Below are positions 14,286 through 48,391 of a stretch of DNA of 64,000 bases, piece after piece; the first letter of the stretch is position 1; every line of letters starts with the position of its first letter. Source of the stretch: Reclinomonas americana ATCC 50394 (Eukaryota). The translations under genes and the position numbers were made by a program. The notes beneath the pieces were generated by a model that ran no database searches, had not been told where the DNA came from, and worked only from the letters and a program-made list of their open reading frames with translations. The stretch covers positions 122,128 through 186,127 of the forward strand of contig PS015099.1 of assembly GCA_048213135.1 (NCBI GenBank), given 5' to 3'.

Positions 14286-14802
14286 ATGATTCGTGCCGGT
14301 TGGGCCACGAAAGAGGTGAGCGTGCGTGTGTGCGTGCAAGTGTGTTTGAATGTGCAACTTTGTGAAAGTGGGTGAGAGGGTGTGAGAGTGTGCACGTGTA
14401 GAGCACGTGTAGAGAGAGAGAGAGAGAGAGAGAGAGAGTGCATGAGAGAGTGTGAGTGTGCGCGGAGTTCGATATCCATTTTCTTGCACACACAGGGCAA
14501 CACTGTGAAATCGTGGAAGCGGCGGTACTTTGTGCTCACAGACCACCAACTGGCGTACTACACTGACGAGACAGTTGCGCATTCTACTTCAATCTCTCAT
14601 CTCTTTCTTTGTGACTCTGACACACACTCGCGCGCGCGTTGTTCACTCCGCCACAGCGCAAGTCATGCAAGGGCGTCATTGAGCGATCGCAAGTGGTCAG
14701 CACACGCAAGGCGGAGGATAGGCCGAAGCATCCGCACATTTGCTGCGTGGAGACTGCGGCGGCCAAGAGTTAAGTGACAAAAGAGACAAAGACAGAGAGA
14801 GA

Positions 14803-14881
<79 letters not shown>

Positions 14882-17800
14882 CGTATGAGAGTTTGTCTGT
14901 GTGCGCCTGACCCTCTCGCCGCAGAGCTGAGATCGTATTTCATCTCGTTTGACTCAGTGGAGGAACGCGACGATTGGGCCGCTGTGCTCTCACAGTGGCA
15001 CAAGGGACCCGAGGACCTGGCGCCTCTCGACTCGGTACGCCAGCCAGACGCGTGCGCGGGTACGATGGAGAGAACTCACGAGTGTGTTGTGGCGGTGCAG
15101 TTGGCCAGTTTCTCCGACTCGATGGGCTCGGGCGGCATGTTGGGAGGAGGAGGAGGAGGGGGTCCGCCGGCGCGAGGAACCGGCTCGTTGTTTAGTTCAT
15201 CGGCTGGCGGACGCACGCCGTTGAGCACGCCACTGGGGGCGCCTGTGTCGTCTGGCCCGTTGCGCGTGTTCATTGCGTTGGTCGGTTCTCATCATCCGCC
15301 CGAGCTGCGTGCGCTGGCCGGTGCGGTAGCACATGCCGTCCTCCGGCTGCGCTCGCTCCTGGTGGTGTTTGGTGCCACGAGTTTGGAAGCGGTGCGTGCA
15401 TGTGTGTGTGTGCTTGCCGTTCTTATCTGCTTGCGCATTGACCTTTGGTGCACAGACGGACGACTTGGCGGAGGCCGGCTGCAAGACGGTTCTGCTGGAT
15501 GTCTCCGACGAGAGTACGATCGCCGATGCATTGGTTGGCTGTGATCGGCTGTTGATTGTGCCGTCGTATTCCTCACGAACAGGTGGGAGGCTGTTGTGAG
15601 AGCTCGTCTCCGGTGAAACGTTGTGCTTACCACGTCGCAGTGTCGTCGGATCTGGAGCGGCTGTTGCGAACGTCTGTCGAAGCCGGCATCCAGCAATGCC
15701 TCCTGCTGTCGACCATGGCCGCCAATGCAGGGTCCAGTGTACCCACGGCGAAAGCGGTGATTTATGGCTCTGTGTGTGTGCACTCTCGACATTCGACTGA
15801 TCGCATCGGCTGCTGTGCTCACAGGCAGCGGCGGCGGAAAATCTCGTCTCGCGAAGTCGGATCCCGTGCTGGACGGTCCTCCGACTCGCACCGCTTATGG
15901 AGTACTTTGACCACGAGGCTCGGTACCTGGCTGCCAACTTGCAGTTTCTCGGAACGACGGGTTGCGTCTGTCGCGGAGATTTTCTGTTTCTCTCTTGTGC
16001 CGCCTCGCACTCATTCTGCGGCGATTGGTTAGGCGTAACGTCCTATGCAAGTGTCAGCGCCGACGATGTCGCCGAGGGTGTTGGGCGCATCTTCTCCGCG
16101 CCCGATTTTCACCACCGCGCCGTGTACAATTGGACCGGTCCACAAGTGAGTGCATGTGGGGCAATGAGTGCAAAGCACGTTGTTGAGTCCTCATCTCGCA
16201 CGCAGGCCATGAACGAGTCCGAGTATGCGGCGTGCTTGTCGGCCGTGCTGAAGAGACCAATAGAATACGTCGAGGTGACGAGGGACGAGAAGCGCGCACA
16301 GTTGCACTCGGCTGGCTTTCCGCCAGCTGCTACTGAGGTGAGTGGTGGGGGGAAAGGGAGGGCACGGAGTGAGGCGGTTTAGGAAAGGGCAGATAATGCC
16401 ACGATATGAGATGGAGAGGGAAGGAGAGTGAAAGAGAGAGAGAGAGAAGAGAGAGAAGAGAGAGAGAGAGAGAGATAGAGAGCGAGAGAGAGAGAGAGAG
16501 AGGTAGAGTNNNNNNNNNNNNNNNNNNNNNNNNNNNNNNNNNNNNNNNNNNNNNNNNNNNNNNNNNNNNNNNNNNNNNNNNNNNNNNNNNNNNNNNNNNN
16601 NNNNNNNNNNNNNNNNNNNNNNNNNNNNNNNNNNNNNNNNNNNNNNNNNNNNNNNNNNNCCGTTGGAGCAGGAGAAAGAAGAAAAAATGAGAGAATGATA
16701 GAAGGAGAGAGGGAGAAGGGAGAGAGTGTCTGTGCATGTGAGAGAAAGAAGGATGAGAGAAAACAGAGAGAGAAAGAGAACTATGGATTTCGAATGTGGA
16801 AGTGTTGTCACTCTTTCCCTCACTTCGTCCCGCCGTGCGTGTGCTGCTGCAGACAATTCTCGACATGTTCGACTGCAAGCGCGGTGGGGCATTCGCCACT
16901 GTCGAGTCGGGGCTTGGAGGTTGCGTTTCACTCGTTTTTTATTCTTCTTCTCGCTTCTCTCGGTTGTCGCCCACTCGTCCCTTCTCGCGCTGCAGAGTTT
17001 CTTTGTCGGCCACTCGTGAAGTTTGCCGAGTATGTCGCACAGAAGTCGTCGCGATTTGGAGTTGCGCGAAATCTCATCCATTATCTCATTCTGCTGCATG
17101 CTGATCGCTAGCGAATACCTGCAGACGTCGTACGCGCGCGTGGAAGCTGTCCTGGCGTCGTCGGTGCAAACTGTGTGGGATCGAGTGGGAGACTTTTATA
17201 CCATGGAGTCGTGGTTTCCGCCAGCCGAGGTGTGACCTGCTGATGTCCACCGTCTGTGATCTCGATCCTCGCAAAAATGTTGACCTGTCTGCTCGCAGCG
17301 CTGTGAGAGGCTGTCGGATGGTCTTCGTCGCGTGCACCGCACCGGCGGTCTCGTGGTCCTCCATGCACTGGTAGCGTGTAGTTGATGTGCGAGCCGACTG
17401 CGATATAAGAGACTGACTTGCATATTCCACTCTAGAAACCGAGTCCGCGAAGCACGGTGAGCGATCCTCACACGCGTGCGATTTCGTGGACGCTGGTGGA
17501 TCGTGGCGACACGTTGATTGTGCGAGGATCGCTGCATGTTGCGTGCTGGTGCTGTCATTGTTCGTGCGCGTTTTTTTACTGACCGCCGGTGCTGCAGTCC
17601 ACCATCAAACTGTGGCCAGTGGCGGGCGACCAGACGTATTTCTCATGGCATGCCGTGTGGGATCCAGTTGATTGGCGAGCTGGTTTGTTAGGCATGTGCA
17701 GAGGATAGAGTGGGATAGCGAGAAGCGAGAGAGATCGGAGTTTGTGAGGGTGGAGGAAAACGAGAGGAAGAGGCGTATTCGCATGTTCTACGCACCCGTG

Positions 17801-19442
17801 CTCACAAAGCGATTGCATACAGCCGACGAGGCACTCTCCATTGTACAACAAGATTTTTCGCGCGGACTCTCCCGCCTCACCGAGCTGTATGGCGCGGGTA
17901 GGGTGGTGATTGCGTCCGAGGACGTTCTTCTGGCGTCGTTTGCGGCTGACTCGCTGGCGCTCGGTTTCCACTGGGCACACAATCCCGAATGTGCGTACTG
18001 CTGTCTGCCTGCATCATCTCGCACGCAGTCGTCAACTGATGTGCGCATTACAGTGGTTTCGGAGCGTGCTTCACATCTCAGCTATCTCCGCCCGCCGACC
18101 ACTGTGTCGCACCATCCGCAAAAGGAGGCTGGCGACTTTACCAACAAGTTGCGTGTGCACATCACGAATCTCGGTAGCTCGTCGCAGCCTGTCTCACCTG
18201 CTTGGACATTAGTGGTGACCAAATGCTGATGCTGCTCGAATCGCTGGTCGACCACCGCGGAGAGTTCAACGCCGACGAGTACTGTGAGGTGCGCAAAGCA
18301 CATCTGATTATAATAGTGTGTTTAGATTGCACGACACTCATCGATCTCTCGATGCAGCACCTGGTGCGATCGTATCTGGAGCGCGATCACCTGTATCGGT
18401 ATGCATCTCAGTCTTACTCGTCGCGGCGTCGTACCCAGTATTCTCAAGCGCCCTGTTTTTCTTTTTTGATTGTCAGCGATCAAGCCATTCAGACACTGAT
18501 CGAACGCCGCGGTGCCAGTCGGCGTTTCACCGAATTCGCTCTCGACAGCAGGGACATTTGTGGTTCATGTCGCGTTCCACCACTGTTGTTGTCAAAGGCA
18601 GTTGTGGCCTCCAAGGCCGACGAAGATTTGCTTGTCGGGTATGTCAACTGGAGATTATTGAGGTACTGATGCGGATGGTACTCATTGGTGCAACAAAAAT
18701 CCATCGCAGCTTGGCCCGCGAGCAGACGCGCAGCACCCACAATACTCCGGAGGCGATGCTTGTTGCCGAGTTTTTTGCGCGCTCGCTCGTGCGGCTGCAA
18801 CAGGCGGGTGGTGAATTGCGCCCGCATCGCGCGTTTGAGATGGTGTTGCGCGACATGGACGACGTGTGGCTCTCTGAAAGAGTTGCGTGTGTGCGCATTG
18901 ACACAACGCACTCGTGCGCTTACGGGAGTGTTTCGTACAGATCAACGCCGGTCTGCACAGCGCAGATGTCGACGATCTCGAATTCATGAGCGCCTTGTCA
19001 CCCGAAGGCTTGCAGAGCTCTCGGGAGCTGCCCGTCGGCCTCGGCGCGTCGTGCACATACGCCGTGCCGGCCATCGTACATTTTGTTGTCAAGTACGAAC
19101 GGGTGCGTCCTCTTGATGGTCATAGCCGAGCAGGATTATTCGCGGGTTGACTCAACTTGTTTTTTGTCTGGATCAGGACGTCGAGTTGGCCCTGGTGCGC
19201 AACTNNNNNNNNNNNNNNNNNNNNGCGCGGTGGGCGGAGAGTGCGCCGCTCGCGGCGTTATGATTGCCGCCCTGTTGACGGCGGCCAACGGCACGTGCGA
19301 GTTCGTACGTCGTCTGTTTGCGGGCGTGCGGCAAGGTACACGCATTCGGCGGTTAATCGGCGAGCTGAAGGGAGGGTGCAGCAGCGAATCCGCGCCACCG
19401 GCACCGTCATCGTCGGGCCCCGTGCGCTCCTCTCTACGATAG
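14286..19442 (+). CDS. Fusion protein: PH, NmrA-like Rossmann, SRPBCC (polyketide cyclase-like) and ADP-ribosylglycohydrolase domains
   Basis: 23 phase-consistent introns with no internal stop. PH: AGWATKEGNTVKSWKRRYFVL...ERDDWAAVL. NmrA-like: SVSADDVAE...YNWTGPQAM...VLKRPIEYVEV. SRPBCC: VQTVWDRVGDFYTMESWFP. ARH: LASFAADSLALGFHW...GDFTNNGDQMLMLLESL...TRSTHN...GGECAARG. Confidence 0.8.
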
Positions 19443-24510: not shown

Positions 24511-27210
24511 TTACGGATTCATCTTGCTGATTTCCGTGTGGACCTTGGTGTAGTAGGCCTCCAGCTCGCCGAGTTTTGAGTGCACGTACTCCTTGTGGTC
24601 GACAATCGAGGAGAAGGCCGGCAGCAGCATGTCGCGTACTTGCTGGCGCTCGGCGGCCAACTCCTCGGCCAGTTCCTCGTACCTGCGGTGGCGATGTGGT
24701 GGGGTTAGCATTTTTTTCCCGCAGGCGTTGGCCTCGGTGGACGCAACTGCTCCTCCAGCAAGCGGATTTGCATTTCGCTCTCCTCCACAGTCATGCCCGT
24801 GTTGGCCTCCATGGCGCGGATCTCGCTCCAGATCTCCGCCTCTTCTCGCTCGCCGTCGCGCACGCGCTGCTCCAGCAACTCCTTGTCGTGCTTGTACTGC
24901 TCCTCCAGCTGCGCAAGCGTCAGCTCCAGCTTGCGAACTTCGTCGCTACGCTCCTCCAGCTCCTCTTCCACGCGAGCCAGCTGCTCCCGCGCCTGCACCG
25001 CCTCCTGCTGCTTCCTGCGCGCCTTGTCCACGTACCGCTCGCGCACCGCCGTCAGCTTGGGTCGCAGTGTGCCCTTGAGATCGAGAGCCACCGGCTCCTG
25101 GAAACCCGTGGCGTCTCGGTTGACCGACACCTCAAACACACGACCACCAGCGTGCTTGGCCTGCTGGGGCACCAGCTTGAGACGAGCCGCAATGCTGTTG
25201 TAATCAAACACGCGCAGATCGAGCTGTGTGGGCGAGAGAGCGAGGCAGAGAGGAATGAGATGAGCTCCCGCAGGCTTGGATTGCGCAAGTGTACACACCT
25301 CGTCCATCAGCTTGCCGTACATGGATTCGGCCTCCCACAGCTCGCTTTCGATCTTGGCACGCTGCTGCATCAAGGTGTGCAACTTTTCGTCGAGTCGCGA
25401 CCGGTCGCGCGTCATGCGCTCCACATCCGCCGGGGTCAGCTCCTGGCGTGACAGTGCGTCCTGCAGCGACGCCTGCAACTGTCGCAACTCCTCCAGCTCG
25501 GTATCTACAGGAGGTGTGGAGTCAGTCGCGTGCTGCATCCGTGCAAAAGCACGGAGGGTGCGCGCAACTTGTTGTCGCCAGCGACTGTTGCTTCTCGGCC
25601 AGCTTCACCTCCAAATGCGCAATGTAGGCCGACGTCTTCTCCACCAGTTGCTCAAACTTGGCCACGTCGCGCCGTGCATCCTCTCGCTCCTTGCTGTATT
25701 GCAGCAGGAGCGACGGATTGTTTCGCATCTCCGTCAGTGCCTCAATCAGCTTCTCGCGCACCGTGTACAGCCTCTCCGTCTCCTCAATGACTCCGGCATT
25801 GCGCTCATCTGCGCCCAAATGATTTTCCGTTGAGTTCACGACACTGGTGGCGACGGCGACGACAAATTCATCGCGCAACTGATGCTCTCACACAGTCGCT
25901 GCTCGACATCTGAAAAATCGTCGGCTCCTGCCAAGAACTGATAGTAGGCGTCGCTGACGTACGCCAGCACGAGATCTTCATCGGCGGCCGGCGATGAGGC
26001 ACGGCGCTCCTCGTACTGTTGTTGGCATGCAGGTGCGTTGAGTGCGACAGCGAAAGAGGGGTGTCAGTCACATGCACTGCTTGTGCTACGCGCACACCTT
26101 CAACAATTCGATGAACCAGTTCAGGTATCCGAGAATGGTCGGCCACGTGTGCTGCGTGCCGACCGACTGCAGCTGTCGCTTGCTGACGGGGAAGGGGTAC
26201 TTGAGACGCGCAATAATCGCCGCAATGTCATCCTCCGCCTGCGATCGGGTGAGGAACCAGCCAATACAGAGAGAGGGGGGTGTGTGGAGAGAGGAGGCGC
26301 GCACCTTGCCAGAGTAAAAGTTGAATTGTGGGTCGAGCTGGCGCACGAGGAACAGGAAGATCGAGGTAAAGTCCTTCATCGACGGCGCAGTGAGACTCTT
26401 GGGTGAGATGGCTTCGGGGTAGCCGCGCTCGACCAGATACTCAATGAGGTTTCGCAGGCTCTGGGCAATGTAGCCGCGGTCGCCGAGAGGGCGTGGGTCC
26501 TTGCGACGCTGCAAGTGCTGCAGGTTGGATGGAGCTGCGGCTGCCGACGATGGGCTGTTGAGGGAGGAAGGAAGAGAGAGTGAATTGCACAATCGTGAGA
26601 TGATTTTGATGATGATGAAACAAACTTCAGAGTTGCACACTGATGCCATTAATCTCTCTCACTCTCAAGAGCACAAAAAGGAACGAGCTGCGAGGAGGCA
26701 CACACGCTCGCACGCACGCACGAAATCTACCACAGACGATCTCGCTCTGGACAGTGAACACGATCACACACTCTCTCTCCTCCAAGAAGACATTTTGGGT
26801 CCCTCTCACAGGCAGAGCCTCGCTTTCTCAGCCCCCCTCTCGAGGCGTACACACACACACAGACACACACACACAGACACACGCACACACACTCCAACGC
26901 CTGCGTCTGAATAACAATCACCCTCGTCTCACCGTCCACCACTGGCCGTCGACGCACGTCCACCGCCCAGCGAGCTGTTGCGAGCCGCGCCCATCTGGCC
27001 TGGTGCTGCCAGTGCGCCACCCATAGACGGTGCCATGCTGTGCCTCTCAGCACCCCCCTGCAACGACACTTTGCCGGGCACACCACCCGCAGAGTGTCGA
27101 GCGCCAGGGCCCAGCGATGCGCGACTGTTGAGTGCGCCCATGGACAGTGGGCCGAGGGTGCGCCGTTGTGCGGCACCACCGCTGCTGCCTTGACTGTTCT
27201 GCGATGCCAT
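24511..27210 (-). CDS. NDC80: Kinetochore protein NDC80/HEC1 (7 introns)
   Basis: KDPRPLGDR, PSMKDFTSIFLFL, LKYPFPVSK, HTWPTILGYLNWFIEL; long coiled coil with QELTPADVERM and YNSIAARLKLVP. Confidence 0.95.
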
Positions 27211-27580: not shown

Positions 27581-30500
27581 ATGGGCCGCTTCACGTGGGA
27601 AGGTGTGCTGGCCGTCGGCGCCCTGGCACTCTTTCTCGGCGTGTTCTTTGGCCTCCTCTTCCCCGATCTGAGAGTGCGCGACGACTATGAGAGGTGAGTG
27701 CAGGCCACTCACGCGCGCGCACACGCACACATTGTCATCATTTTTCTCATCGATGCGATGATGATGACGACACACAGCGCGGTGTGCGATAATTTCCGTA
27801 CAAACGTGGCACCGGACGTGTGCTGCGACACCTCGTGTGCCTCCAACACGTGCGAGTGCTGTTCGTTGCGTGGTTGGGAGAGGGAAGGGAGGGGTATAAG
27901 GAAAGGGTGGAGAGATGACGGGTGGAAAGGAGAGGGACATGCCCTAGAGTTGCAAGCAGCATTGTGGGTCGAGAGGAAGGAGAGGGAAAGTGAGTTGAAG
28001 TGTGAGCGGCAGAGGGTTAGGGAGAACAGCATGGGCATGTTGGAAGGGATCACATGTCCTTGAGTTGCAAGCAGCATTGTGGGTCGAGAGGAAGGAGAGG
28101 GAAAGTGAGTTGAAGTGTGAGCGGCAGAGGGTTAGGGAGAACAGCATGGGCATGTTGGAAGGGATCACGTGCGCTGGGAGAGGATATAAAGACATAGGCA
28201 CTGTAGCAAAGCTTGTTGAGGTGCGACGATTCTCTGGATTGGAGAGGAGCGCGCTATAGTTGAGCTTCGTGAGCTGCAAGAAACTTTGTACGTCGAAAGA
28301 GTGGTGTGTGCGAGAGAGGGGTAGGGAGTATGTAAAGGCAGAGGCAGCGCTAACTGTAGCAAAGCTTGTTGAGGTGCACGACGCTCCGTATATCAGAGAG
28401 AAAGAGAGAATGAATGACCGCACATGAACAGAGGCCTCTTGAGCTGCAAGCGCCTGTGTGGGTCGACCCCGTGATCTGTGTGTGCGAGCAGGAGGAGACA
28501 AGGAGTGAATGTCAGGGAAAGTGACGAAGTTCATGTGTGTGCACGTGTGTGCCAGAGGGCAGCAATCTGTAGCAGGAGTATGTTTGTGTGTTGTGAGAGA
28601 GATACTTTTCGACGAGCGTGACAGAGAGAAGATGTGAAGAGAGATCGCAGGGGTGCAAGTGAGCGAAGAGACCAAGAGCGCGTCCACTTTGCCTCATTCT
28701 CTCGTCCCCTTTCCCCCCCCTTCGCAGCCTATCCATGCCCATCTGCGACTCGTTTGTCCNNNNNNNNNNNNNNNNNNNNNNNNNNNNNNNNNNNNNNNNN
28801 NNNNNNNNNNNNNNNNNNNNNNNNNNNNNNNNNNNNNNNNNNNNNNNNNNNNNNNNNNNNNNNNNNNNNNNNNNNNNNNNNNNNNNNNNNNNNNNNNNNN
28901 NNNNNNNNNNNNNNNNNNNNNNNNNNNNNNNNNNNNNNNNNNNNNNNNNNNNNNNNNNNNNNNNNNNNNNNNNNNNNNNNNNNNNNNNNNNNNNNNNNNN
29001 NNNNNNNNNNNNNNNNNNNNNNNNNNNNNNNNNNNNNNNNNNNNNNNNNNNNNNNNNNNNNNNNNNNNNNNNNNNNNNNNNNNNNNNNNNNNNNNNNNNN
29101 NNNNNNNNNNNNNNNNNNNNNNNNNNNNNNNNNNNNNNNNNNNNNNNNNNNNNNNNNNNNNNNNNNNNNNNNNNNNNNNNNNNNNNNNNNNNNNNNNTTT
29201 TTTCATCACAATCTGCACAATATCGCACGCCCCCCTGCCTTGTTTCTGTTCGCGTGTCCGCCCGTAGCTCCTGCCATTTGTTTCTGTTGCTTTTCCTTGT
29301 TGCATGCTTGTTCGTTTGCTAGCCTCAGTACTGCGCGTCTTCTTTACTTGATCTTGTCATTGTTCTCCACATTGCTTGATTTCACGAGCATGTTTCGTCT
29401 CTCTGCCGTCCCTATTTCCGCTTTCTGTCGCACTTGATAATCTCGAGGCATCCTTTCTCTGTAGTGCGTTGTCTCAATCATTCTGCTTGCGTCTTCATTC
29501 GCTGATGCGCCCCCCCTCCCCACCGATCCAGGCATCGTCAACGAGACCGTGGGTATTGCGCTGACGTTCGTCGCCTGCGGCCTCATTGCGGTTTGCCTAC
29601 CGGTGACCCTTTGGCTGTGCTTGCCGTCTGTGCTGCTGCTCTTGTCCGTCATTTTTGTGTTCTCGGTGCCGACGGTGGCGTTTGTTCCGGTGGTGGCGGC
29701 AGGTGACTTTTCCGCATTGTGCGCCTAATGGCACATTTTTTCGTCTCATCCTTGCTTTTTCCATCGCAGCCTGGGTGCGTGGCGTCAATGCTCGCATTTT
29801 GTTGTCATTGGTGATTGGTGTACCAGCCTTCACTCTGGCGTCGGCCATGGTTGCTTTTTGCATCCGACGGAAACGTGAGCCGCAAGGCACAGTGCTTCGC
29901 TGGCTGCTCGGTCTCGCTCGCTGGGAGTCGCGAGCGTTTCCACCGCTCTACTCGGCCGGCTACAATTCCGCCGCCAAGTATCACGAAACTGTCACATTCC
30001 TCGTTTTTCGCATGTGCATCACGGCCGCTGTGTGTGTGGTGAGCAGGCATGTCAACTGTAGCGATTCTTCAGCGGTGAACTCACCGTCATTTTTCGCTCG
30101 CCAGGGTGGTGGCCTAATCATTCTCCTCACCGTTGGCGATCACGCGCACAACGCCGGTTGGGCGGGAGCAGCAGCCTACGTGATGGTGGGAGTCGGCACC
30201 GTGGCATTCTATGCCGCGCGTAAGCGATTCCACAATCTGCATCTATTCGTTCCGTTTTGCATGACGGGTTCAGCTGTCCACCGTCGACAACGACGTTGCT
30301 CACCGCTAATCTCTCTCTCTCTCTCTCTCTTGCAGTGCGCGGTGACTGGCTGGCTGGCGGGGACGGCGTTTTTGTGCGTCGGCTTGTGGGTGGAGGCTAC
30401 TTTTGTGGCGCAGTGCCGAGCGGTCGTCAACGCAAGTGGCGCGTGTGCCAATTATGACCAGCTGCAGCATTTTGCATTCCTCGCTCTTGGCTTGGCGTCA

Positions 30501-31489
30501 CTCGACATTATCATCCTGGTACGTCACGGTCTCGCGTTGCCTCCCGTGGTTGGCAGACTGCACAGTGTGTATCATGTGCACGCGAGCACAAGCACGGAGA
30601 TACATGCACGCAGAGGCACACACACACACACACGCCGGTACACACATTCACAGAGTTTGATCCGACCATCACGAGAACACGCACATTCGATCACGACTGC
30701 CGTCAAGTGCACACCATCATGTTGTCAGGATGGCAGATGCATGCGCTCGATCCTCGTTACCATCACACAAGCATAGCACAGGCTGACTATAAATCCGCAG
30801 TTCTACATGTTTGTCACGGCATTTTCCTTTTGGTCGGCGAGCACCGCGATTCCGGGAGACGAAGACGAGTCGCTTCTCGGTCGGCGAGATGCGCAACAGC
30901 GCGCACGTTGCGTCGACTGGATGCGATGCTGGCCATCTCGCTCGTGCTCGCCGTCGTATTCAACGCAGAATTTTGTGAGCAGGATCGTGCGCTCTGGAGG
31001 TCAAGGCCGGTAGCCGATTGGAGACCGTTTTCATGGATCGACATGATGTGTTCCAAAACGGGGTCACGCTGGAGGTGAGGGATCAGAGGAACTCTTGTAG
31101 AGGCATAGGAGGAGGAGGAGGAGGCATAGGAGCAGTAAGAAAGAGTGCTATGTTCGACGGTTGAGACATTCGTTGTCCTTTTGCACTTGCTCACGGACGT
31201 GGTGTGTAACAGTGGTGGACCTGCATGAACGATCGCAGTCGCGTCGATCGAGTTCGTAAGTACGATGTCGAGGAGAGTGGAGGCATGGGTTTGGCAAGGT
31301 TTGTGAAGAGAGAGGGAGAGGGAGGGAGGGAGAGAGATGAAGGGAAAGAGAGGGAGGGAGACGGAGATGAAGGGAACGAGGGGGAGAGAGAAAGGGGCAA
31401 AGCGATTGCTGTCTGTCTGTCTATCTGTCTGTCTGTCTGTCTGACTGTCTGTCTGTCTGTCTGTGTGCATGTGAGATTATTTGTCTTGG

Positions 31490-31532
<43 letters not shown>

Positions 31533-31621
31533 GTGCCTCTATCTGTCTATGTGTGTGTGCGTTAAATGTGAGCCTTCTTTCTCTTTGTTTCTAAGTCTAT
31601 CTGTCTGTCTTTCTGTCTATG

Positions 31622-31674
<53 letters not shown>

Positions 31675-34581
31675 TTCTGTATGTCTGTTTGTGTGCCTCT
31701 TTCTGTCTGTTTGCCTGTCTCGATCTCTCCCTCCCTCCCTCCCTCCCTCTCTGTATGTGTGTATGTGTGTGGGTGTGTCTGTCTGTCTGTCTGTCTGTCT
31801 GTATGTAGTCTGTTTGTGTGTCTCTTTCTGTCTATTTGTGTGTGTGCGTTAAATGTGAATCTTCCCTCTCTGTTGTGTTTGNNNNNNNNNNNNNNNNNNN
31901 NNNNNNNNNNNNNNNNNNNNNNNNNNNNNNNNNNNNNNNNNNNNNNNNNNNNNNNNNNNNNNNNNNNNNNNNNNNNNNNNNNNNNNNNNNNNNNNNNNNN
32001 NNNNNNNNNNNNNNNNNNNNNNNNNNNNNNNNNNNNNNNNNNNNNNNNNNNNNNNNNNNNNNNNNNNNNNNNNNNNNNNNNNNNNNNNNNNNNNNNNNNN
32101 NNNNNNNNNNNNNNNNNNNNNNNNNNNNNNNNNNNNNNNNNNNNNNNNNNNNNNNNNNNNNNNNNNNNNNNNNNNNNNNNNNNNNNNNNNNNNNNNNNNN
32201 NNNNNNNNNNNNNNNNNNNNNNNNNNNNNNNNNNNNNNNNNNNNNNNNNNNNNNNNNNNNNNNNNNNNNNNNNNNNNNNNNNNNNNNNNNNNNNNNNNNN
32301 NNNNNNNNNNNNNNNNNNNNNNNNNNNNNNNNNNNNNNNNNNNNNNNNNNNNNNNNNNNNNNNNNNNNNNNNNNNNNNNNNNNNNNNNNNNNNNNNNNNN
32401 NNNNNNNNNNNNNNNNNNNNNNNNNNNNNNNNNNNNNNNNNNNNNNNNNNNNNNNNNNNNNNNNNNNNNNNNNNNNNNNNNNNNNNNNNNNNNNNNNNNN
32501 NNNNNNNNNNNNNNNNNNNNNNNNNNNNNNNNNNNNNNNNNNNNNNNNNNNNNNNNNNNNNNNNNNNNNNNNNNNNNNNNNNNNNNNNNNNNNNNNNNNN
32601 NNNNNNNNNNNNNNNNNNNNNNNNNNNNNNNNNNNNNNNNNNNNNNNNNNNNNNNNNNNNNNNNNNNNNNNNNNNNNNNNNNNNNNNNNNNNNNNNNNNN
32701 NNNNNNNNNNNNNNNNNNNNNNNNNNNNNNNNNNNNNNNNNNNNNNNNNNNNNNNNNNNNCTCTCCCTCTCCCTCTCCCTCTCCCTCTCCCTCTCCCTCT
32801 CCCTCTCCTCTCCTCTCCTCTCCCCTTCACCCCTTCTCCCTCTTCCCTCTCCCTCTCCCTCTCCCTCTTTCACCCCTCATTCCACGCCCTCTCACTTGCT
32901 GCGTGTTGCCTGCTGTAGCCCGCCCGCACCCACCTTGCTCGACGTGGAACTGGCTGACGATGATGGCAATCGTTTCCTCTCACTGCGCGTCGATGTCGAT
33001 GGTCGCATGCGCTGTGCAGCGCATCGTGTAGGCGGCAAGCAAGCTGCCGACGACCAAGATGACACGCTGGTGGTCACTCACCATTCCGCATTTGTTGTGG
33101 GCGAGGTTTGGCGATCATCCTCTCATCTGTTGTATGTGTGTGTGCGCGCGCGCTGTTTATGTCGTCACCTCGTTACAGTGGAAGCACATTGCCGTGACGC
33201 TCTCAAGACAATCGCTGGCGCTTTACGTCAATGGCCAGTTGGTGCCTGGACAGGGCGACCGATACGTGCAAGAGTTGCGTCTCTGCCAAATTTTTCCTTA
33301 TCGTATGTGGCTTCTTACCTCTCACACCCGCCGCAGTCCGCAGCAGCTAAACATCTTCTCTGAGCTGGTGCGTTCACGTGAGCCGAAGCTGGCCTTCGCT
33401 TCCGGTCTTGCGGATGTGCTCTTGTGCGAAATCCGGGTGTGGAACACGGCTCGTTCGTTTGCGGCGATTCAGGACTACTTCAACTGCGCGTTGCGCGCGT
33501 GCCACCAAAAGGCCAATGATGTGGTGTCGGCGGTGGCCGATTCTCTGGTTCTGTGGTTTGAGTTCAACACCAACCTGGCGCCGCGCTACCTCGAATCGGC
33601 CTCGTCACGTGGTCACGTGTTTGAAGTGCTTGGAGAGTCGTCGTCGCTTGTGACGAAGACCACGCTCACGCAGCAGGAGCGAACGGACCCGCAGTTGGAT
33701 GCTGCTGCGGCCCGGCGACTCTACGATGCGTTTGGTGAGATACGCACGTCACTCCTCTCTCTGTGGCTCCGATTTTCACTTGCAGTATCCACGCGACATG
33801 TCTCTTCTCTCCCATCGCCTTCCCCGCCGCGTCGCCACTCACACCCCCCTTCCCCGCTTCACCGCAGTTCCTGGCCCTGTGCCACTTCTCAGCATTCGCG
33901 CCGTGCAAGATGGCTTTGCGGTGGTAAGCTTTGTTTTCTGCACCGCAGTGCCATGTGTCATTGTTATTCTCACGCTCGTCTTGTTTTCTTGTCTCTGCAG
34001 CGGTGGATGCCATACGAGTTCAACGTCCCCATCACCAGCTACCTCATCATGTACGAGGAAAAGGACAAGGTGGACTCGGATCCCGGCCACGAGTACTTGC
34101 CAAAGAAGGATGCCACCCATGTGGCGCGAGCGGATCTGGCCTGTGACGAGTGGAACGAGGCCGGTGAAGGCGCTTCAGCCAGCGTGCTGCTGCGACAGCA
34201 GCAGGAGCCCGTGGAGTACACGGCACGCGGGCTGCGACCGGACACCGACTACCTGGTGTGGGTGGCCGCAGCGCAGACCACACGGTATGGGCCGTGCTCG
34301 GCGCCTGCATCGGTGTGCACATTGCAGTCGTCGTCGTCGACTACAACTACCCGGTCCCACAGCAGCAAGCGAGGGGGCCACGGCCACCGCCTCCGAGCTA
34401 CGAAGACTCTCTCTCTCTGTTGCGCATATTTTTGGTGCTTTGTTCTCGCGTCATCTGCGGTGGCTGTCTGACGTTGCGTTTGTGTGGTAGTATACCGGCT
34501 CGCGTTGGGCGGGACGGAGAGGATGCAAATGGAACTGTGCAGCCAGCTGCCAGGCCGCCACCGTCGTACTCCGAGGTGTGA
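27581..34581 (+). CDS. Multi-pass membrane protein with Cys-rich loop, LamG/ConA-like domain, FN3 domain and two PPxY motifs (spans two gaps)
   Basis: N-terminal TM and VCCDTSCASNTCEC; many hydrophobic segments at 29530-30520. LamG: WKHIAVT...LYVNGQLV...EIRVWNTARS. FN3: GLRPDTDYLVWVAA. Tail: PPPPSYE and PPPSYSEV*. Continuity across the gaps is inferred. Confidence 0.6.
27947..28168. repeat. 107-bp direct repeat (period 115) in an intron
   Basis: GAGTTGCAAGCAGC...GGGATCAC at 27947-28053 and 28062-28168, apparently identical. Confidence 0.95.
31409..31800. repeat. (CTGT)n tetranucleotide microsatellite region
   Basis: Multiple GTCT/CTGT runs within an intron. Confidence 0.9.
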
Positions 34582-34959
34582 GGCAGAAGACGCTGTGATG
34601 AGCTCAGTGTAAAAATCGTGTTCGAGAGTTTACGGTGTGCGAGTGTGAGACTGCATTCACGCACATGCATGCCTTTGCAGAATAGATGTTTTTATCAGCG
34701 GAAACAGCTGGATGATGACGGTCACGACGCGTGGACGGATGGCCATTGGTGTGGTCGAGCATGTCGGCACCGATAAAAGTCAGCAGCTCGAACGCCTTGG
34801 AGTTTCTTTCGATGTTCAGCTAGTTGTGTGGGGCCGCTTTGCAAGTACGTATTCATGCAGTTTGTTCCTATCATTGTTGTTTTTGTTGTCTAAAAAATCA
34901 AGTTGCCTTGTCCGTACAACAGAATCGCAAGAGAGCTCCATTTCCTTCGCTTCTCGCGC

Positions 34960-37900
34960 ATGGATCGCCATCACCGCTCCCTCCCAGTGCAGCTCCGCGG
35001 CCCACAGGGGGCAATTGCTCTCGAATCCGTGGAGAAGGCTTCGCCGCGCGCCGCGCTACGATCTCCTCGCACCGAAGTGGTGCCGTGGTACGCACTGCCA
35101 GTCGCCGAATGCCTGCATGCATTGCATGTGGCTGACCCGGAGATCGGCCTGCTGACTGCTGCTGATATCGAGTCCCGGCGGCGTGAGTTTGGCCACAACC
35201 ACTTGCAGGATATCAAGCAGCGCACCGTGCTGGGTATCATCATACCGCAGTTTTTCAACTGGATCAACTTGGTCCTGTTGGCGACATTTCTGCTCACAGT
35301 CATCACTGCCGACTACGTGGAGATGACGGTGGTGCTGGTGGTGCTTTTGCTCAACGGTGTCATCGGTTCCTGGCAAGAGCTGCGCTCGGAGCAGTCGATG
35401 CGAGCCATCCGCTCGCTGGCCCGCAGTCAGGCTCACGTTCGTCGTGCCGCTCAGCTTCGCGTGGTGGACATGGAGGAGCTGGTGGTGGGCGACGTTGTGG
35501 AGCTGCGTGCCGGCGATCTCGTGCCGGCCGATTTGCGACTGTTGGAGACCACTCGCTTGGAGGTCGACGAGGCAGTGCTGACCGGTGAATCGGAACCCGT
35601 GCAAAAAATGGCAGGAGCCCTTCCTCCAGTACTCGAAGTGGCAGCAGACGCCAGTCCGATCGTCTCACAGCCGCCGGCCATACCGCCACTGAGTGATCAG
35701 GTCAACATGGCATTCCGGCAGACTCTGGTGACACAAGGCCAGGCGGTGGCCGTGGTTGTGGCTGTCGGTGCACAGACGCAAGTGGGCCGCATTGCAGAGC
35801 AGCTGGCAGCAAAGAGCGGGGCCGACGTCAAGAGCCCACTGGCACGAGAGCTGAGCATCCTCATGTTCACCATGGTGGCCGTCGGACTTGTGTTTGCCGT
35901 GTTCATTCTGTGGGCTTTCCGCTGGAGTTTCTCCAGCGACGCGCTACTCTACGCCACCGCCACACTTATCGCCATCCTGCCGGAGGTCATCAATGTGCTG
36001 CTGACAGTGGCCATGGCTTTGGCGAGCCAGCGGATGGCCTCGCAGAACGCGATTGTGCGCCGCCTCCCGGCGCTGGAGAGACTCGGCAAGGTCACCGACA
36101 TTTGCTCGGACAAGACTGGCACCCTCACCACCGGAAAGATGCAGGCCGTGCGCGTGTGGCTCGCAAGCGAGATTGGGGTGACCTCGGCGTTGCTGCGCAA
36201 CGATCTGCGGGCCGCTGATGGGCTTCGCGCCCCACCGATGGTTGCTACTGGTGCTCCGCGCTCGGCCACCGGTGGTTGGATCCGTGAGGGCGACGACGCT
36301 GTTCAGGATCGAGATGCGGAGCCAAGCTCGATGCAGGTGAGATTGCTTATAACCTCCTCTGTTTGTAGCGTCGCCACGGTTATCTTACAGATTGTGTGTT
36401 GCACAGGAGCGACCACCGCATTTGCGTGGTTACGCACACCCAGCATTGCAGCAGGAGTGGGTGTTGAGCATGATGGTGGCCGCATTGTGCTCGTCAACAG
36501 CACTGGAAGTTGACGACAATGGACATTTGTCGGGCTCTGGCAACCCGACCGAGGTCGCCCTGCAAGTGCTTGCTCACCAGAGCGGTCTCCCACGCGACGA
36601 GTTCCTGGTTGACTGGGAGGCACGTGGCGAGTGGGCTTTCGAGTCGGAGGTGAAACGAATGAGCACCGGGTGGCGACATCGAGATTTGCCGGTGGGCATT
36701 GTGCTGTGCAAGGGCGCACCGGAGCGAGTTTTCGAACGCTGCCGCAATGTGGCCCACGACGAAGTGGCGATGCAACGGTGCGAGGAGGCAGTCGTCGCTC
36801 TTGCCTCGCAGGGCCTTCGAGTGCTGGCGCTCGCGTTTCGTCTGGTGCGCAACTCACCGGTGGAAGGCAATCGCGCTGACGAGGATGGTGGCGGTACTGC
36901 GGCCTGTGCTGATCTCCTGCAGCCCGTGCGCTCATTCGGAGGCGGAATATCGGCGCTCAAGTTCGTGCATCGCCAGTCCAGCACCAGGTCCTTACCGGCG
37001 CGTCGCTCTTGGAGCCATCAACGTCCTCAACGAACTCAGTCGTCGTCGTCAGCGGCGACGGATAGTGGCGGTTCTGGAACACGGAAGCTGCCTACCGGTC
37101 GCCTCGTTGTTCGACTGGCCGCAGTGCAAACGTTTCTGGAGGCCTTGATGGAGGACTACGAAGAGGAGGTGGAGGAGAGGAGGGTGGAGGTCGGCGCAGA
37201 CGTGGGAGGCGATGTCGAGAGAGTGAACTCAGAGAAGAAGGTGAGTGCGATGGGAATGTGGATGTGAGCAGCGAGATATACTAGACCGGCAGCGCATCGG
37301 GTTCACCAGCTGTATAGCAATTGGTATTCACGGGCGGGTGTTGAGATGCTGATGGCATGCCAGTGCACTTGTTGCAAGTCATAGTCTGCGCACTGCAACT
37401 CCATCATTAGTTTGCTTTCGCATGCTCACGCGCACACACACACAAACATGCGTACTCGTACACTACTCTCATGTCAATTTTATCGGCATCCTCCCTATTT
37501 CTCTCCGCAATATCTGACTTGCTTCCCTACAGGACGACGGCAGCTCGCCGACTCCAGACCTCCGCCAGTCGATCATTGCCGAGTATGAGCGGGACTCTGT
37601 CGAGTGCGACCTGGTGTTCCTCAGTTTGGTGGGACTGCGTGACCCACCGAAACATGAATCAGCCGCCGCTGTGCAAGAGTGTATCGAGGCAGGCATCACG
37701 GTCCGCGTTCTCACGGGTGATCACGTGCAAACGGCTGTCGCTGTGGCGGAAGAGCTCGGCGTTCTGCCGCCGGTGCACATTCAGCAACCCGGTCACGGAC
37801 TGTCGGCAGAGCAAGTCCGCGATGCAGAGCTGGGAGTGGAGCGTGGAACGCATGCACAGCTGCTGCATAGGGCGGTGCTCACTGGGCCGCAGTTTGATCG

Positions 37901-39355
37901 GCTGACGGATGAAGAGCTGGATGCCATGGTTGATTTGCCGAGAGTGGTGGCGAGGTGCGAAGGGAGGGAACGGGAGGGGAAGGGAGGGAGGGAGGGAAGG
38001 CGGAGGGAGGGAGGGAGGAAGGGAGGGAAGGCGGAGGGAGGGAGAATGGGAGGAAGGGATGGAGAGGGAGGGAGGAAGGGAGGGAGGGAGAAAGGAAGAG
38101 GAAAGGTAGAGAGATTGATCACGCGACAAAAAGAGAGGCGAGAGACAGAAGAGAAAGAGGGAAAAGAATGGGAGAAAGGGGATGAAAAGCAAAGAAAGAG
38201 AGAGTTGGATGTTAGGGAAGAGGGGGTGGTTGAAAACAAGGCAAGGAAAAAAAGAGAAAGAGAGAGAGAGGGGCATACGTGACCTGCATCTTTATCGCGC
38301 ACAATACCGTGGTCAACGTACATCCTCTGCAGACTATGCAGTCTCTCTTGTTGGCTGTCTTCAATATCTCTACCCTTCTCTGACTATCGCTTTCTCGCTG
38401 CTTCCGCGCGCCTCGCAGATGCACGCCAAGCACCAAGGTCCGCATGGTAGAGGCCCTTCGTCGACGCGCTCGTGTCGTGGCCATGACGGGCGACGGTGTC
38501 AACGATGCGGCCGCCATCAAGGTCGCCAATGTCGGCATTGCGATGGGCATTTCCGGGTCAGAAATCACCAAGTCAGTGGCCGACATGGTGCTGGCCGACG
38601 ACAACTTTGCCACCATTGTTATGGCGGTGCGCGAGGGTCGCCGGTTGTTTTACAGCATTGCCAACTTTGTTGTGCAATTATTGGTTGGCAACGTGGCAGA
38701 GGCCATTCAGCTCATGCTCGTCTTGTCTTTTTCGACCGATGAGCAAGGACTGCCCGTGTTTACCCTGTCGCCACTGGCGATTCTGTGGATCAACACAGCG
38801 ACAAGCACCGGCCCGTCGCTGGCTCTGTCGCTGGAGCCGCCGCCGCGCGACACCATGCGTCAGCCGCCGCTCCCATCGTCGCTGTTTACTCGGCAGCTGG
38901 TGGTGGATGTGCTGTTCTATGGGACACTGATCGGTGCTCTGAGCCTCGGCGGATACGTCATTGTTGTGTGGGGTGCCGGAGGCGGGGAGCTCGGCCACAA
39001 CTGCAACCACAGTGGCAACAGTGGCGCGATGGCCACCAACTGCGAATCTGTGACGCGCGGTCGAGCGGTAGCATTTGCCATTCTCAACTTTCTTCTGCTG
39101 TACAACTACGCTTTTTACCGTGCCACCTTCCCCCAGCGATGGCCTCTGCTTGCCTGCATTGTGGGTGGCATGGTGGCTGCCACTGTGCTCATATACATTC
39201 CGGTCGTGAATGACCGGGTGTTTCGACACGCCCCCATTACGTGGGAGTGGGGTGTGGTGGTCGGCGCGGTGGCGGTGTTCCACACGTGTGGTGTGATGTA
39301 TCAGTGGGCCGTGCGTAGGTATCGTCGCTTGCGTGCGGCAAGGGCGAGTGAGTAA
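34960..39355 (+). CDS. ENA1: P-type ATPase, type IID (ENA-like Na+/K+ exporter), 3 introns
   Basis: LTGES, DICSDKTGTLTTGKM, GNPTEVALQV, KRMS, KGAPE, DPPK, LTGDH, TGPQFDRL..EELD...LPRVVARCTPSTKVRMVEAL and AMTGDGVND. Confidence 0.85.
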
Positions 39356-48037: not shown

Positions 48038-48391
48038 CTATCATCACAACGGGTGAGTGTGTGTCACGCACACACATATGTAGAGAGAGAGACAGACAGT
48101 CACACACACAGGGATAACAGGGACAGAGAGACAGTCATACACAGACACAGAAACCGCAGACACACGCCATCTACACACTAGCACACGCACACACGCTCAC
48201 ATACACACACACACACAGAGAGAGAGGTAGTCAGTTGAGACCATAGACTCACATATAGTGAGATTAAGACTCGTTGAGACAGTCAGTCACACAGTGAGAC
48301 ACGCAGCCAGCACAGACACAGATACACAAGATAGACACACTCACAGAGAGTCACACAGAGACACAAGCACAGACAGATATACAAACAAAAA

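What the first reader, a model, noticed from the sequence alone, without database searches (positions are those of the whole stretch)
14286..19442. Unusual four-domain fusion: PH, NmrA-like, SRPBCC, ADP-ribosylglycohydrolase
Seen: one continuous spliced frame joins PH (about 14286-15000), NmrA-like Rossmann (about 15260-17060), SRPBCC (about 17125-17890) and ARH (about 17920-19370). The SRPBCC-ARH junction lies within a single exon. Known: PH binds phosphoinositides, NmrA-like domains sense NAD(P), SRPBCC binds hydrophobic ligands, and ARH binds or removes ADP-ribose. The last three usually occur as stand-alone proteins. I do not recall this architecture. Inference: a membrane-recruited sensor or eraser linking redox or ligand state to ADP-ribosylation, for example in anti-toxin defence or signalling.
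Basis: partly seen in the sequence, partly recalled or inferred. Interest (0 to 1): 0.78.

Follow-up and report, generated by a model that had tools for sequence, protein, structure and literature searches.

The report
Four-domain fusion gene with pseudoenzyme-like modules
An intron-rich gene of an unidentified protist most likely encodes one protein of about 1000 residues that joins a membrane-binding PH domain, an NmrA-like domain, a hydrophobic-ligand pocket and an ADP-ribosylhydrolase-like domain, and the two enzyme-like parts lack the usual cofactor and catalytic residues, so it looks more like a sensor or scaffold than an enzyme.

Summary
All four domains are present, in the stated order, on the + strand. 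I rebuilt a 23-exon GT-AG model (14286-19442) that gives an open frame of about 1002 residues.

Domain support:
- PH passes Pfam's cut-off.
- Single exons gave only weak Pfam hits for the other three.
- Against profiles I built from Pfam-verified bacterial members, the spliced protein scores 90 bits for NmrA, 21-28 bits for SRPBCC and 64-72 bits for ARH. The best of 2000 shuffles scored 10 bits or less.

Links between domains:
- PH to NmrA lies in one exon.
- NmrA to SRPBCC crosses a typical 64-nt intron.
- SRPBCC to ARH depends on one splice (about 17667-17731) that I could not place canonically.

The interpretation needs revising. The NmrA-like domain lacks the GxxGxxG loop. The ARH-like domain belongs to an uncharacterised bacterial "His-type" subfamily without the Mg-binding acids. 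An ADP-ribose eraser gated by NAD(P) is therefore unlikely.

No relative, transcript or publication of this architecture was found, but the lineage is poorly sampled. Moderate interest: a new combination of known domains.

The parts
14286..15000 (+). PH domain. It spans exons e1 14286-14315, e2 14496-14573, e3 14657-14768 and the start of e4 (14925 onward). The start codon is at 14286.
   Evidence: Pfam PF00169 scores 30 bits (E 7.8e-7, cut-off 25.1) on the ORF that holds e2. The C-terminal helix with the conserved Trp (DDWAAVLSQW) is read directly in e4.
15001..15244 (+). Gly/Ser-rich low-complexity linker, inside exon e4.
   Evidence: Translation of e4. No Pfam family was found on e4.
15245..17060 (+). 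NmrA-like Rossmann domain with a degenerate nucleotide loop. It spans the end of e4 (to 15391), e5 15456-15582, e6 15641-15756, e7 15825-15960, e8 16033-16145, e9 16206-16337, e10 16853-16919 and e11 16996-17060.
   Evidence: My own profile of 30 Pfam-verified NmrA members scores 90.1 bits, E 1.4e-26, over model residues 222-443 (hmm 28-250 of 250). The GATGxxG loop has no aligned counterpart, and Arg is replaced by Thr225. The alignment runs unbroken across the intron that holds the N gap.
16338..16852 (+). Intron 9, 515 nt as assembled. It contains the assembly gap 16510-16659 and (GA)n repeats.
   Evidence: The NmrA profile alignment is continuous from e9 to e10, so no exon appears to be missing.
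17061..17124 (+). Intron 11 (64 nt, GTTGCG...CTGCAG). It is the only link between the NmrA-like and SRPBCC parts. If it is retained, the frame stops at 17109-17111, and an ATG at 17098 could start a separate SRPBCC-ARH gene.
   Evidence: The donor GTTGCG is used at 7 of 22 introns, and the length falls in the 58-83 nt class of 19 of 22 introns.
17125..17881 (+). SRPBCC (Polyketide_cyc2-type) domain. It spans e12 17125-17229, e13 17299-17370, e14 17436-17537, e15 17598 to about 17666, and the C-terminal helix in the first half of e16.
   Evidence: Pfam PF10604 on e12 alone scores 19.6 bits, E 0.0012, below the cut-off. My own profile of 30 members scores 21.1 bits on the model and 24-28 bits on the listed splice variants, with hmm 115-143 placed on the e16 helix. 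Best of 2000 shuffles: 9.2 bits.
17667..17731 (+). Uncertain e15/e16 junction. The intron must have a length of 2 mod 3. The model uses 17667-17731 (GTTGAT...GAG). The alternatives include an assembly indel.
   Evidence: One search lists many in-frame GT..AG options. The only CAG acceptor (exon start 17702) gives an intron of 47 or 35 nt. Without splicing, the e15 frame stops at 17706-17708.
17927..19442 (+). ARH-like domain of the 'His-type' subfamily plus a short Ser/Pro tail. It spans the second half of e16 (to 17990), e17 18054-18147, e18 18213-18288, e19 18358-18398, e20 18477-18638, e21 18710-18881, e22 18941-19102 and e23 19177-19442 (N gap 19205-19224 inside). Stop TAG at 19440-19442.
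   Evidence: The broad ARH profile (51 members) scores 63.8 bits, E 1.9e-18, over residues 665-955. hhalign gives 98.1%. The His-type profile (6 members) scores 72.1 bits, hmm 3-282 of 284. Key columns: D670 kept, E to H677, DD to NN714/715, D to E936, D to A938, T to A939.

Best explanation
This is one nuclear gene of an unidentified, poorly sampled eukaryote. It has about 23 short exons and encodes a protein of about 1000 residues with four modules in this order: PH, NmrA-like, SRPBCC, ARH-like.

Shown:
- The four folds are present in that order.
- PH and NmrA-like share one exon.
- The ARH-like domain starts in an exon whose upstream half is still coding.
- The NmrA-like module lacks the glycine-rich dinucleotide loop.
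- The ARH-like module belongs to a divergent 'His-type' subfamily. This subfamily also occurs as stand-alone genes in bacteria and lacks the acidic residues that hold the two Mg ions in canonical ADP-ribosylhydrolases.

Inferred mechanism:
- The PH domain brings the protein to phosphoinositide-bearing membranes.
- The SRPBCC pocket binds a hydrophobic small molecule or lipid.
- The two enzyme-derived modules act as non-catalytic, or non-canonical, ligand-binding or protein-binding modules.
- Overall it would work like the PH-plus-START class of lipid sensors and transfer proteins, with two added pseudoenzyme-like modules. It would not work as an ADP-ribose eraser.
For: Gene model:
- An open spliced frame of about 1002 codons.
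- 19 of 22 introns are 58-83 nt, 18 of 22 acceptors are CAG, and 7 of 22 donors are GTTGCG.
- 17 of 22 introns would break the frame if retained.
- GC3 is 0.69 in exons, against GC 0.51 in introns.

Domains:
- PH is over Pfam's cut-off.
- NmrA scores 90.1 bits.
- SRPBCC scores 21-28 bits against 9.2 or less for 2000 shuffles.
- ARH scores 63.8 bits, with hhalign at 98.1% and 72.1 bits against the His-type profile.
- The profile alignments run collinearly across exon boundaries and across the intron with the N gap. This supports the splice model independently.

Motif losses:
- NmrA: the GATGxxG loop (29-30 of 30 members) is absent, and Arg (29 of 30) is Thr.
- ARH: Glu (41 of 51) is His, Asp-Asp (44 and 43 of 51) is Asn-Asn, Asp-x-Asp-Thr is Glu-x-Ala-Ala.
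- Six bacterial members (L096, L103, L105, L107, L109, L110) share the His and lack the acidic pair. They are the best pairwise matches (E 1.6e-9 to 1.9e-5 in a set of 51).

Context:
- No Pfam family was found on the opposite-strand ORFs or on the flanking ORFs.
- There is no second copy in the window.
Against: - No RNA evidence is available.
- The e15/e16 splice cannot be placed with this gene's own canonical signals. At that point, continuity depends on an atypical intron or on an assembly indel.
- The NmrA to SRPBCC link depends on one predicted intron. Its retention would give a stop at 17109, and an ATG lies at 17098.
- Pfam's own models, run on single exons, stay below threshold for NmrA (no hit; NAD_binding_10 E 0.037), SRPBCC (19.6 bits against 27.4) and ARH (13.2 bits against 26.2).
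- The stronger scores come from small profiles that I built myself from one bacterial phylum.
- The placement of the SRPBCC C-terminal helix in e16 adds only about 3 bits.
- The functional part is inference from motifs. A His-type ARH fold or a loop-less Rossmann fold could still bind nucleotides in a non-canonical way.
Confidence: 0.6

Rival explanations
1. Two or three adjacent same-strand genes were merged by the reader. Version (a): a PH-NmrA gene ends at TAG 17109-17111 and an SRPBCC-ARH gene starts at ATG 17098. Version (b): a PH-NmrA-SRPBCC gene ends at TAG 17706-17708 and an ARH-like gene starts at ATG 17783.
For: - Both stop/start pairs exist in the sequence.
- The e15/e16 intron has no canonical solution.
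- In the 401 bacterial genomes sampled, the His-type ARH-like proteins lie in open frames of 322-427 aa, so they look stand-alone.
- No transcript or orthologue was found to settle the matter.
Against: - Version (a) needs overlapping genes with no intergenic space. The alternative is an intron with this gene's commonest donor (GTTGCG, 7 of 22), a typical length (64 nt) and a CTGCAG acceptor.
- Version (b) leaves only 75 nt between genes.
- Version (b) also leaves an SRPBCC domain without its C-terminal helix, while the next ORF begins with a helix that aligns to that part of the profile.
- The PH-NmrA link and the coding stretch upstream of the ARH start are each within a single ORF.
Confidence: 0.15
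2. One reading: an active, membrane-recruited ADP-ribosyl hydrolase (eraser) whose activity is gated by NAD(P) sensing in the NmrA-like domain and by ligand binding in the SRPBCC domain.
For: - The ARH fold is well supported.
- The conserved Asp of the N-terminal motif, the Arg, Pro, Thr-His and Gly-Gly columns are kept.
- The NmrA-like fold is well supported.
- The profile of the His-type subfamily matches the solved ARH-fold enzymes DraG, ARH3 and Tri1.
Against: - Four of the five conserved acidic positions of the ARH family are non-acidic here: Glu to His, Asp-Asp to Asn-Asn, Asp to Ala. The fifth is Asp to Glu.
- That these are the catalytic and Mg-binding positions is my recollection of the ARH1, ARH3 and DraG structures. 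No call tested it.
- The nucleotide-binding glycine loop of the NmrA-like domain is missing.
- The vertebrate family member ADPRHL1, which lacks the catalytic residues, is described as a pseudoenzyme (abstracts of PMC10601310 and PMC7390403, seen in the listing).
Confidence: 0.07
3. A decaying pseudogene or an assembly artefact. The frame break between 17667 and 17731 and the degenerate motifs would reflect loss of function, or errors in a gap-rich draft.
For: - The window is a draft with 17 N runs (4252 N).
- One junction needs an atypical intron or an indel.
- Cofactor and catalytic motifs are degenerate in two domains.
Against: - About 1000 codons have no in-frame stop across 23 exons.
- GC3 is strongly enriched (0.69) relative to introns.
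- The splice signals are regular.
- The ARH motif changes are those of an intact bacterial subfamily, not random decay.
- Only one junction is problematic.
Confidence: 0.08

Closest known systems
PH-plus-START lipid transfer and sensor proteins, such as CERT/STARD11 in animals and EDR2 in Arabidopsis (recalled, not tested here)
   Same: A phosphoinositide-type PH domain at the N-terminus is combined with a helix-grip (SRPBCC superfamily) ligand pocket in one polypeptide. This is the logic I propose for how the protein works.
   Different: - The pocket here matches Polyketide_cyc2 (PF10604). I did not test it against START (PF01852).
- Two extra modules are present: NmrA-like and ARH-like.
- I did not look for a FFAT motif.
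- No sequence relationship to CERT or EDR2 was tested.
Bacterial 'His-type' ADP-ribosylglycohydrolase-family proteins: unnamed stand-alone genes at loci L096, L103, L105, L107, L109 and L110. The closest solved structure is MJ1187, PDB 1T5J.
   Same: - The fold and the hallmark motifs are shared: D-x-L-A-x-x-x-H-W near the N-terminus, and G-G-x-x-x-x-R near the C-terminus.
- The acidic pair is missing in both.
- The window's domain scores 72.1 bits against their profile.
- Their profile hits 1T5J at 57.6 bits, and DraG, ARH3-like and Tri1 more weakly.
   Different: - The bacterial proteins lie in frames of 322-427 aa. In 14 of 401 genomes sampled and at 6 inspected loci, none shows a fused or neighbouring SRPBCC or NmrA gene.
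- Here the domain is the C-terminal module of a four-domain eukaryotic protein.
- No NCBIfam equivalog names the subfamily.
ADPRHL1 (ARH2), the vertebrate pseudo-ADP-ribosylhydrolase
   Same: It is an ARH-fold protein that lacks the residues needed for catalysis and is treated as a pseudoenzyme with a structural or regulatory role (abstracts seen in the listing: PMC10601310, PMC7390403).
   Different: ADPRHL1 is a single-domain, heart-restricted vertebrate protein. I did not compare its sequence with the window. The substitutions here follow a bacterial subfamily pattern.
NmrA and HSCARG-type NmrA-like regulators (PF05368)
   Same: The Rossmann-type atypical SDR fold without the catalytic Tyr-Lys chemistry. 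It scores 90.1 bits against a profile of 30 bacterial members.
   Different: Canonical members keep the GxxGxxG loop (29-30 of 30 in my set) and bind NAD(P). That they bind NAD(P) is recalled. This domain has no such loop and is embedded between a PH and an SRPBCC domain.

Membership tests
PH domain (PF00169) | Match to the Pfam model above its gathering score | tested here: met
   30 bits against a cut-off of 25.1, E 7.8e-7, on the ORF that holds exon 2 alone (profile positions 6-37).
PH domain (PF00169) | C-terminal helix with the conserved Trp, and a basic beta1-beta2 motif for phosphoinositide binding | tested here: inconclusive
   The Trp-containing helix (DDWAAVLSQW) and the KSWKRRYF segment are read directly in the exon translations. 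That these imply lipid binding is recalled knowledge and was not tested.
NmrA-like (PF05368) | Profile match over the domain | tested here: met
   My own HMM of 30 members, each found with PF05368 at E <= 1e-20, scores 90.1 bits, E 1.4e-26, hmm 28-250 of 250. Best of 2000 shuffles: 7.0 bits. Pfam on single exons gave no NmrA hit, only NAD_binding_10 at E 0.037.
NmrA-like (PF05368) | Glycine-rich dinucleotide-binding loop (GATGxxG) | tested here: not met
   The loop columns are conserved in 25-30 of 30 members but have no aligned residue in the model. The corresponding stretch reads ALVGSHHPPE. The conserved Arg (29 of 30) is Thr225.
SRPBCC / Polyketide_cyc2 (PF10604) | Profile match over the helix-grip domain | tested here: met
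   My own HMM of 30 members scores 21.1 bits, E 2.9e-5, against 9.2 for the best of 2000 shuffles, and 24-28 bits on the listed e15/e16 variants. This is moderate support. Pfam on exon 12 alone scores 19.6 bits, below the 27.4 cut-off.
SRPBCC / Polyketide_cyc2 (PF10604) | Long C-terminal helix closing the pocket | tested here: inconclusive
   Profile positions 115-143 align to the helix in exon 16, but this adds only about 3 bits when contiguous and -0.5 bits as a separate stretch.
ADP-ribosylglycohydrolase (PF03747) | Profile match over the whole fold | tested here: met
   - My own HMM of 51 members scores 63.8 bits, hmm 5-259 of 263. Best of 2000 shuffles: 8.5 bits.
- hhalign gives 98.1% over 253 columns.
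- A narrower 31-member profile gave only 19.5 bits.
- Pfam on exon 21 alone scores 13.2 bits, below the 26.2 cut-off.
ADP-ribosylglycohydrolase (PF03747) | Acidic residues of the di-metal active site: Glu after the GDALG motif, the Asp-Asp pair, and Asp-x-Asp-Thr | tested here: not met
   Glu (41 of 51) is His677. Asp and Asp (44 and 43 of 51) are Asn714 and Asn715. Asp (48 of 51) is Glu936. Asp (43 of 51) is Ala938. Thr (41 of 51) is Ala939. The role of these columns in catalysis is recalled from solved ARH structures.
'His-type' ARH-like subfamily (defined here from six bacterial sequences) | His in place of the Glu, no acidic pair, and a GGxxxxR C-terminal motif | tested here: met
   72.1 bits, E 6.5e-21, hmm 3-282 of 284. 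Best shuffle: 10.3 bits. The motif pattern is shared in the alignment. The subfamily is my own grouping, not a curated family.
PH-START lipid transfer proteins (CERT-like) | START (PF01852) domain, FFAT motif, lipid transfer activity | not tested
   This is an analogy of architecture only. No comparison with PF01852 or with CERT was run.

The most novel reading that the evidence does not exclude
The fusion works as a 'Rosetta stone' for the uncharacterised His-type ARH-like subfamily. On this reading, these proteins do not remove ADP-ribose. They act together with a hydrophobic-ligand pocket and a loop-less NmrA-like module as a new kind of membrane-recruited small-molecule sensor or lipid-handling machine. 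The stand-alone bacterial members would then have partners of these two kinds.
Probability: 0.12. Interest if true: 0.6.

Novelty: new variant of a known kind. Interest (0 to 1): 0.35.

Why it matters
If the single-gene reading holds, two enzyme-derived modules have been recruited in non-canonical form. One is an NmrA-like fold without its nucleotide loop. The other is an ARH fold without its metal-binding acids. Both are attached to a PH plus helix-grip chassis that normally serves lipid sensing or transfer. This gives a testable functional hint for a bacterial ARH-like subfamily that has no assigned function. It also warns against annotating such genes as ADP-ribosylglycohydrolases. It does not bear on a long-standing question, and new domain combinations are common in protists.

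Tried and rejected
Searches for relatives:
- The search for homologous proteins with the junction exon (17702-17989, longer proteins): none of 306 candidates scored.
- The same tool with the NmrA stretch 15825-16337: none of 1265 candidates scored.
- phmmer of the 158-residue junction ORF (17702-18175) against 1.84 billion representatives: 0 hits at E <= 0.001.
- These queries were exon-sized, so the blanks are weak evidence.
- The search for related loci in genome contigs with exon 21 gave one locus, L003. It is a chance match on the antisense strand of an ABC-ATPase gene, in a genome with no PF03747 hit. I rejected it.
- The search for related loci in metagenome contigs with exon 16 and exon 20: no relative. 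Exon 7 was too short for that tool.

Expression and context:
- The look-up of sequencing runs: no run was listed and no RNA holder was listed.
- No whole genome is held for the window.

Other tools:
- ESM Atlas on 17774-18145 gave His_Phos_1 fragments at 0.91 with only 125-127 of 256 shared features. I judged this chance.
- phmmer of single ARH exons against PDB gave only unrelated hits: CpcB at E 0.96 and a cytochrome c at E 1.4.
- Weak single-exon Pfam hits that I treat as chance: CpcD 0.016, HicA_toxin 0.13, YBR230W-A 0.21, BDV_P40 0.19.

Literature:
- 0 papers hold both 'ADP-ribosylglycohydrolase' and 'SRPBCC'.
- None of the 15 listed of 27 papers holds both 'ADP-ribosylglycohydrolase' and 'NmrA'.
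- PMC5023847 (passages read) describes separate NmrA-like and SnoaL-like gene transfers into oomycetes, not a fusion.

Bacterial context of the His-type ARH genes, at 6 loci plus one ARH-PfkB fusion: no SRPBCC or NmrA neighbours.

The tools take only contiguous translations of the window, and joined sequence may not be typed.

Full report
**What the window is.**
The window is draft eukaryotic nuclear DNA. It has 17 N runs totalling 4252 N, GC of about 0.5-0.6, many (GT)n and (GA)n tracts, and short introns. Other genes in the window are ordinary eukaryotic genes:
- a ThiF/E1-type enzyme at 2269-2841;
- Ndc80 on the minus strand at 24705-26658;
- a P-type ATPase at 34894-39355;
- asparagine synthase and a CLC channel on the minus strand.

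The ATPase's best database hit is only 53% identical and unnamed. The best named hits are Tetraselmis and Chromera velia at 47-49%. The lineage is therefore poorly sampled, and blank homology searches carry little weight.

**Gene model.**
I rebuilt the gene on the + strand from the sequence, three-frame translations and scripts. It starts at ATG 14286, has 23 exons and ends at TAG 19440-19442. The open frame is 928 codons up to the N gap at 19205-19224 and 71 codons after it.
- 19 of the 22 introns are 58-83 nt. The others are 156 nt, 180 nt and 515 nt. The 515-nt intron holds the N gap 16510-16659.
- 18 of 22 acceptors are CAG.
- 7 of 22 donors are GTTGCG.
- 17 of 22 introns would shift or stop the frame if retained.
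- Exon GC is 0.60 with GC3 0.69, against 0.51 in introns.
- No second copy lies in the window.
- ORFs on the opposite strand and in the flanks match no Pfam family at E <= 0.01.

**Domain calls.**
Pfam can only be given contiguous translations, so on this gene it sees one exon at a time.
- PH passes with 30 bits against a cut-off of 25.1.
- The other three reach only NAD_binding_10 at E 0.037, Polyketide_cyc2 at E 0.0012 (19.6 bits) and ADP_ribosyl_GH at E 0.071 (13.2 bits).
- 13 of 19 exon pieces have no hit, and there are three unrelated weak hits.

To test the spliced protein I fetched bacterial family members that match the Pfam models, from a sample of one phylum. I built HMMs in the script box and scored the model against them beside 2000 shuffles of itself.

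| Profile | Score on the model | Detail | Best of 2000 shuffles |
|---|---|---|---|
| NmrA (30 members) | 90.1 bits, E 1.4e-26 | residues 222-443 | 7.0 bits |
| Polyketide_cyc2 (30 members) | 21.1 bits | 24-28 bits on the listed e15/e16 splice variants | 9.2 bits |
| ARH, narrow (31 members) | 19.5 bits | | 8.5 bits |
| ARH, broad (51 members) | 63.8 bits | residues 665-955, hmm 5-259 of 263; hhalign 98.1% over 253 columns | 8.5 bits |

The alignments are collinear across exon boundaries. For NmrA they also run across the intron that holds the N gap, so no exon seems to be missing there.

**How firm the fusion is.**
- PH to NmrA-like is firm. Exon 4 (14925-15391) carries the PH C-terminal helix, a Gly/Ser linker and the first strands of the Rossmann fold in one ORF.
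- NmrA-like to SRPBCC depends on intron 11 (17061-17124). It has the gene's commonest donor, a typical length and a CTGCAG acceptor. If it is retained, the frame stops at 17109, and an ATG at 17098 could open a separate gene.
- SRPBCC to ARH-like is the weakest link.
  - The ARH profile match begins at 17927, inside exon 16.
  - The upstream half of that exon encodes a helix that aligns to the C-terminal helix of the SRPBCC profile, but this adds only about 3 bits.
  - The e15/e16 splice has no canonical solution. Many in-frame GT..AG pairs exist, but the only CAG acceptor gives an intron of 47 or 35 nt. An assembly indel is an alternative.
  - Without splicing, the e15 frame stops at 17706-17708, and an ATG at 17783 could start an ARH-only gene.
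- I prefer the single-gene reading, for two reasons. The splits would require overlapping genes or genes 75 nt apart. Split (b) would also leave a helix-grip domain without its closing helix.

**The enzyme-like modules are non-canonical.**
In the NmrA-like domain the GATGxxG loop, present in 25-30 of 30 family members column by column, has no aligned counterpart. The stretch reads ALVGSHHPPE. The conserved Arg (29 of 30) is Thr.

In the ARH-like domain:
- The conserved Asp of the N-terminal motif is kept.
- Glu (41 of 51) is His.
- Asp-Asp (44 and 43 of 51) is Asn-Asn.
- GGDxDT reads GGECAA.
- The Arg, Pro, Thr-His and Gly-Gly columns are kept.

That these acidic columns hold the two Mg ions and the catalytic Glu is my recollection of ARH1, ARH3 and DraG structures.

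The pattern is not random decay.
- Six of the 51 bacterial sequences (L096, L103, L105, L107, L109, L110) also carry His and lack the acidic pair. They are the best pairwise matches to the window's domain.
- A profile of those six scores 72.1 bits over 280 of its 284 positions. The motifs D-x-L-A-x-x-x-H-W and G-G-x-x-x-x-R are shared.
- No NCBIfam equivalog names this 'His-type' group.
- Its profile's closest solved structure is the hypothetical protein MJ1187 (1T5J, 57.6 bits). DraG, Lmo0067, an ARH3-like protein and Tri1 follow.
- In 14 of 401 sampled genomes it occurs in frames of 322-427 aa, so it is stand-alone.
- At six inspected loci it has no SRPBCC or NmrA neighbour.

**Most likely mechanism (inferred).**
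The PH domain recruits the protein to phosphoinositide membranes. The helix-grip pocket binds a hydrophobic ligand. The two enzyme-derived modules serve as non-catalytic or non-canonical binding modules. The nearest working analogy is the PH-plus-START class of lipid sensors and transfer proteins (recalled, not tested). The ARH-like part is comparable in principle to the pseudoenzyme ADPRHL1 (abstracts seen in the listing).

**Novelty.**
I found no relative with this junction:
- two word-index searches;
- one exhaustive phmmer search;
- two metagenome scans;
- one genome scan, whose single hit was a chance match.

No paper holds both 'ADP-ribosylglycohydrolase' and 'SRPBCC', and none of the 15 papers listed holds both the ARH and NmrA terms. 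All sequence queries were exon-sized, and I could not run an InterPro architecture search, so uniqueness is not shown. I rate it a new combination of known domains. It has some value as a functional hint for the His-type ARH-like subfamily, and moderate interest overall.

Noticed in passing
window 52028-52588 (+), 54409-55224 (+), 57172-57684 (-), 61691-62707 (+): Several ORFs share long, nearly identical stretches (for example '...NQVTTIAGTGA.GS.DGAAL.ATFQST...VLYVAE...GS.RQL.L...'). This suggests a tandem family of repeat-containing, beta-propeller-like genes. Pfam gave no family at E <= 0.01 for 52028-52588.
   Followed up: partly
window 14286-19442, intron donors: The donor hexamer GTTGCG is used at 7 of 22 introns of this gene, and GTGCGT at 3. 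Introns cluster tightly at 58-83 nt. These unusual splice-site preferences may help to identify the lineage.
   Followed up: no
window 24705-26658 (-): A kinetochore Ndc80/HEC gene. Ndc80_HEC matches at E 8.3e-37 and NDC80_loop at E 4.8e-11.
   Followed up: no
window 34894-39355 (+): A P-type cation ATPase with unusually long exons (539- and 323-codon ORFs) and a Glu/Gly/Arg-rich low-complexity insert near 38000-38300. Its best database hit is only 53% identical.
   Followed up: partly
window 33032-34471 (+): A 479-codon ORF with sub-threshold Laminin_G_3 (24.7 bits) and fn3 (23.5 bits) matches, just upstream of the ATPase.
   Followed up: no
L114 4968-5927 and L116 4968-5933 (bacterial loci): In two sampled bacterial genomes the His-type ARH-like gene sits between parA-parB and a malyl-CoA-lyase-like (HpcH_HpaI) gene followed by succinyl/malate-CoA-ligase-like genes. 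Whether this conserved position has any meaning is unknown.
   Followed up: no
L120 3976-6129 (-): A bacterial 718-residue ORF carries an ARH-family match (G040) and a PfkB carbohydrate-kinase domain. ARH domains therefore do occur in fusions in bacteria, though not with SRPBCC or NmrA in what I inspected.
   Followed up: partly
window 1-2400, 28700-29300, 31200-33000, 48200-50400: Long (CT)n/(GA)n, (GT)n and other low-complexity tracts flank most assembly gaps. They produce many spurious long ORFs of the SLSLSL, RERERE and THTHTH kind.
   Followed up: no
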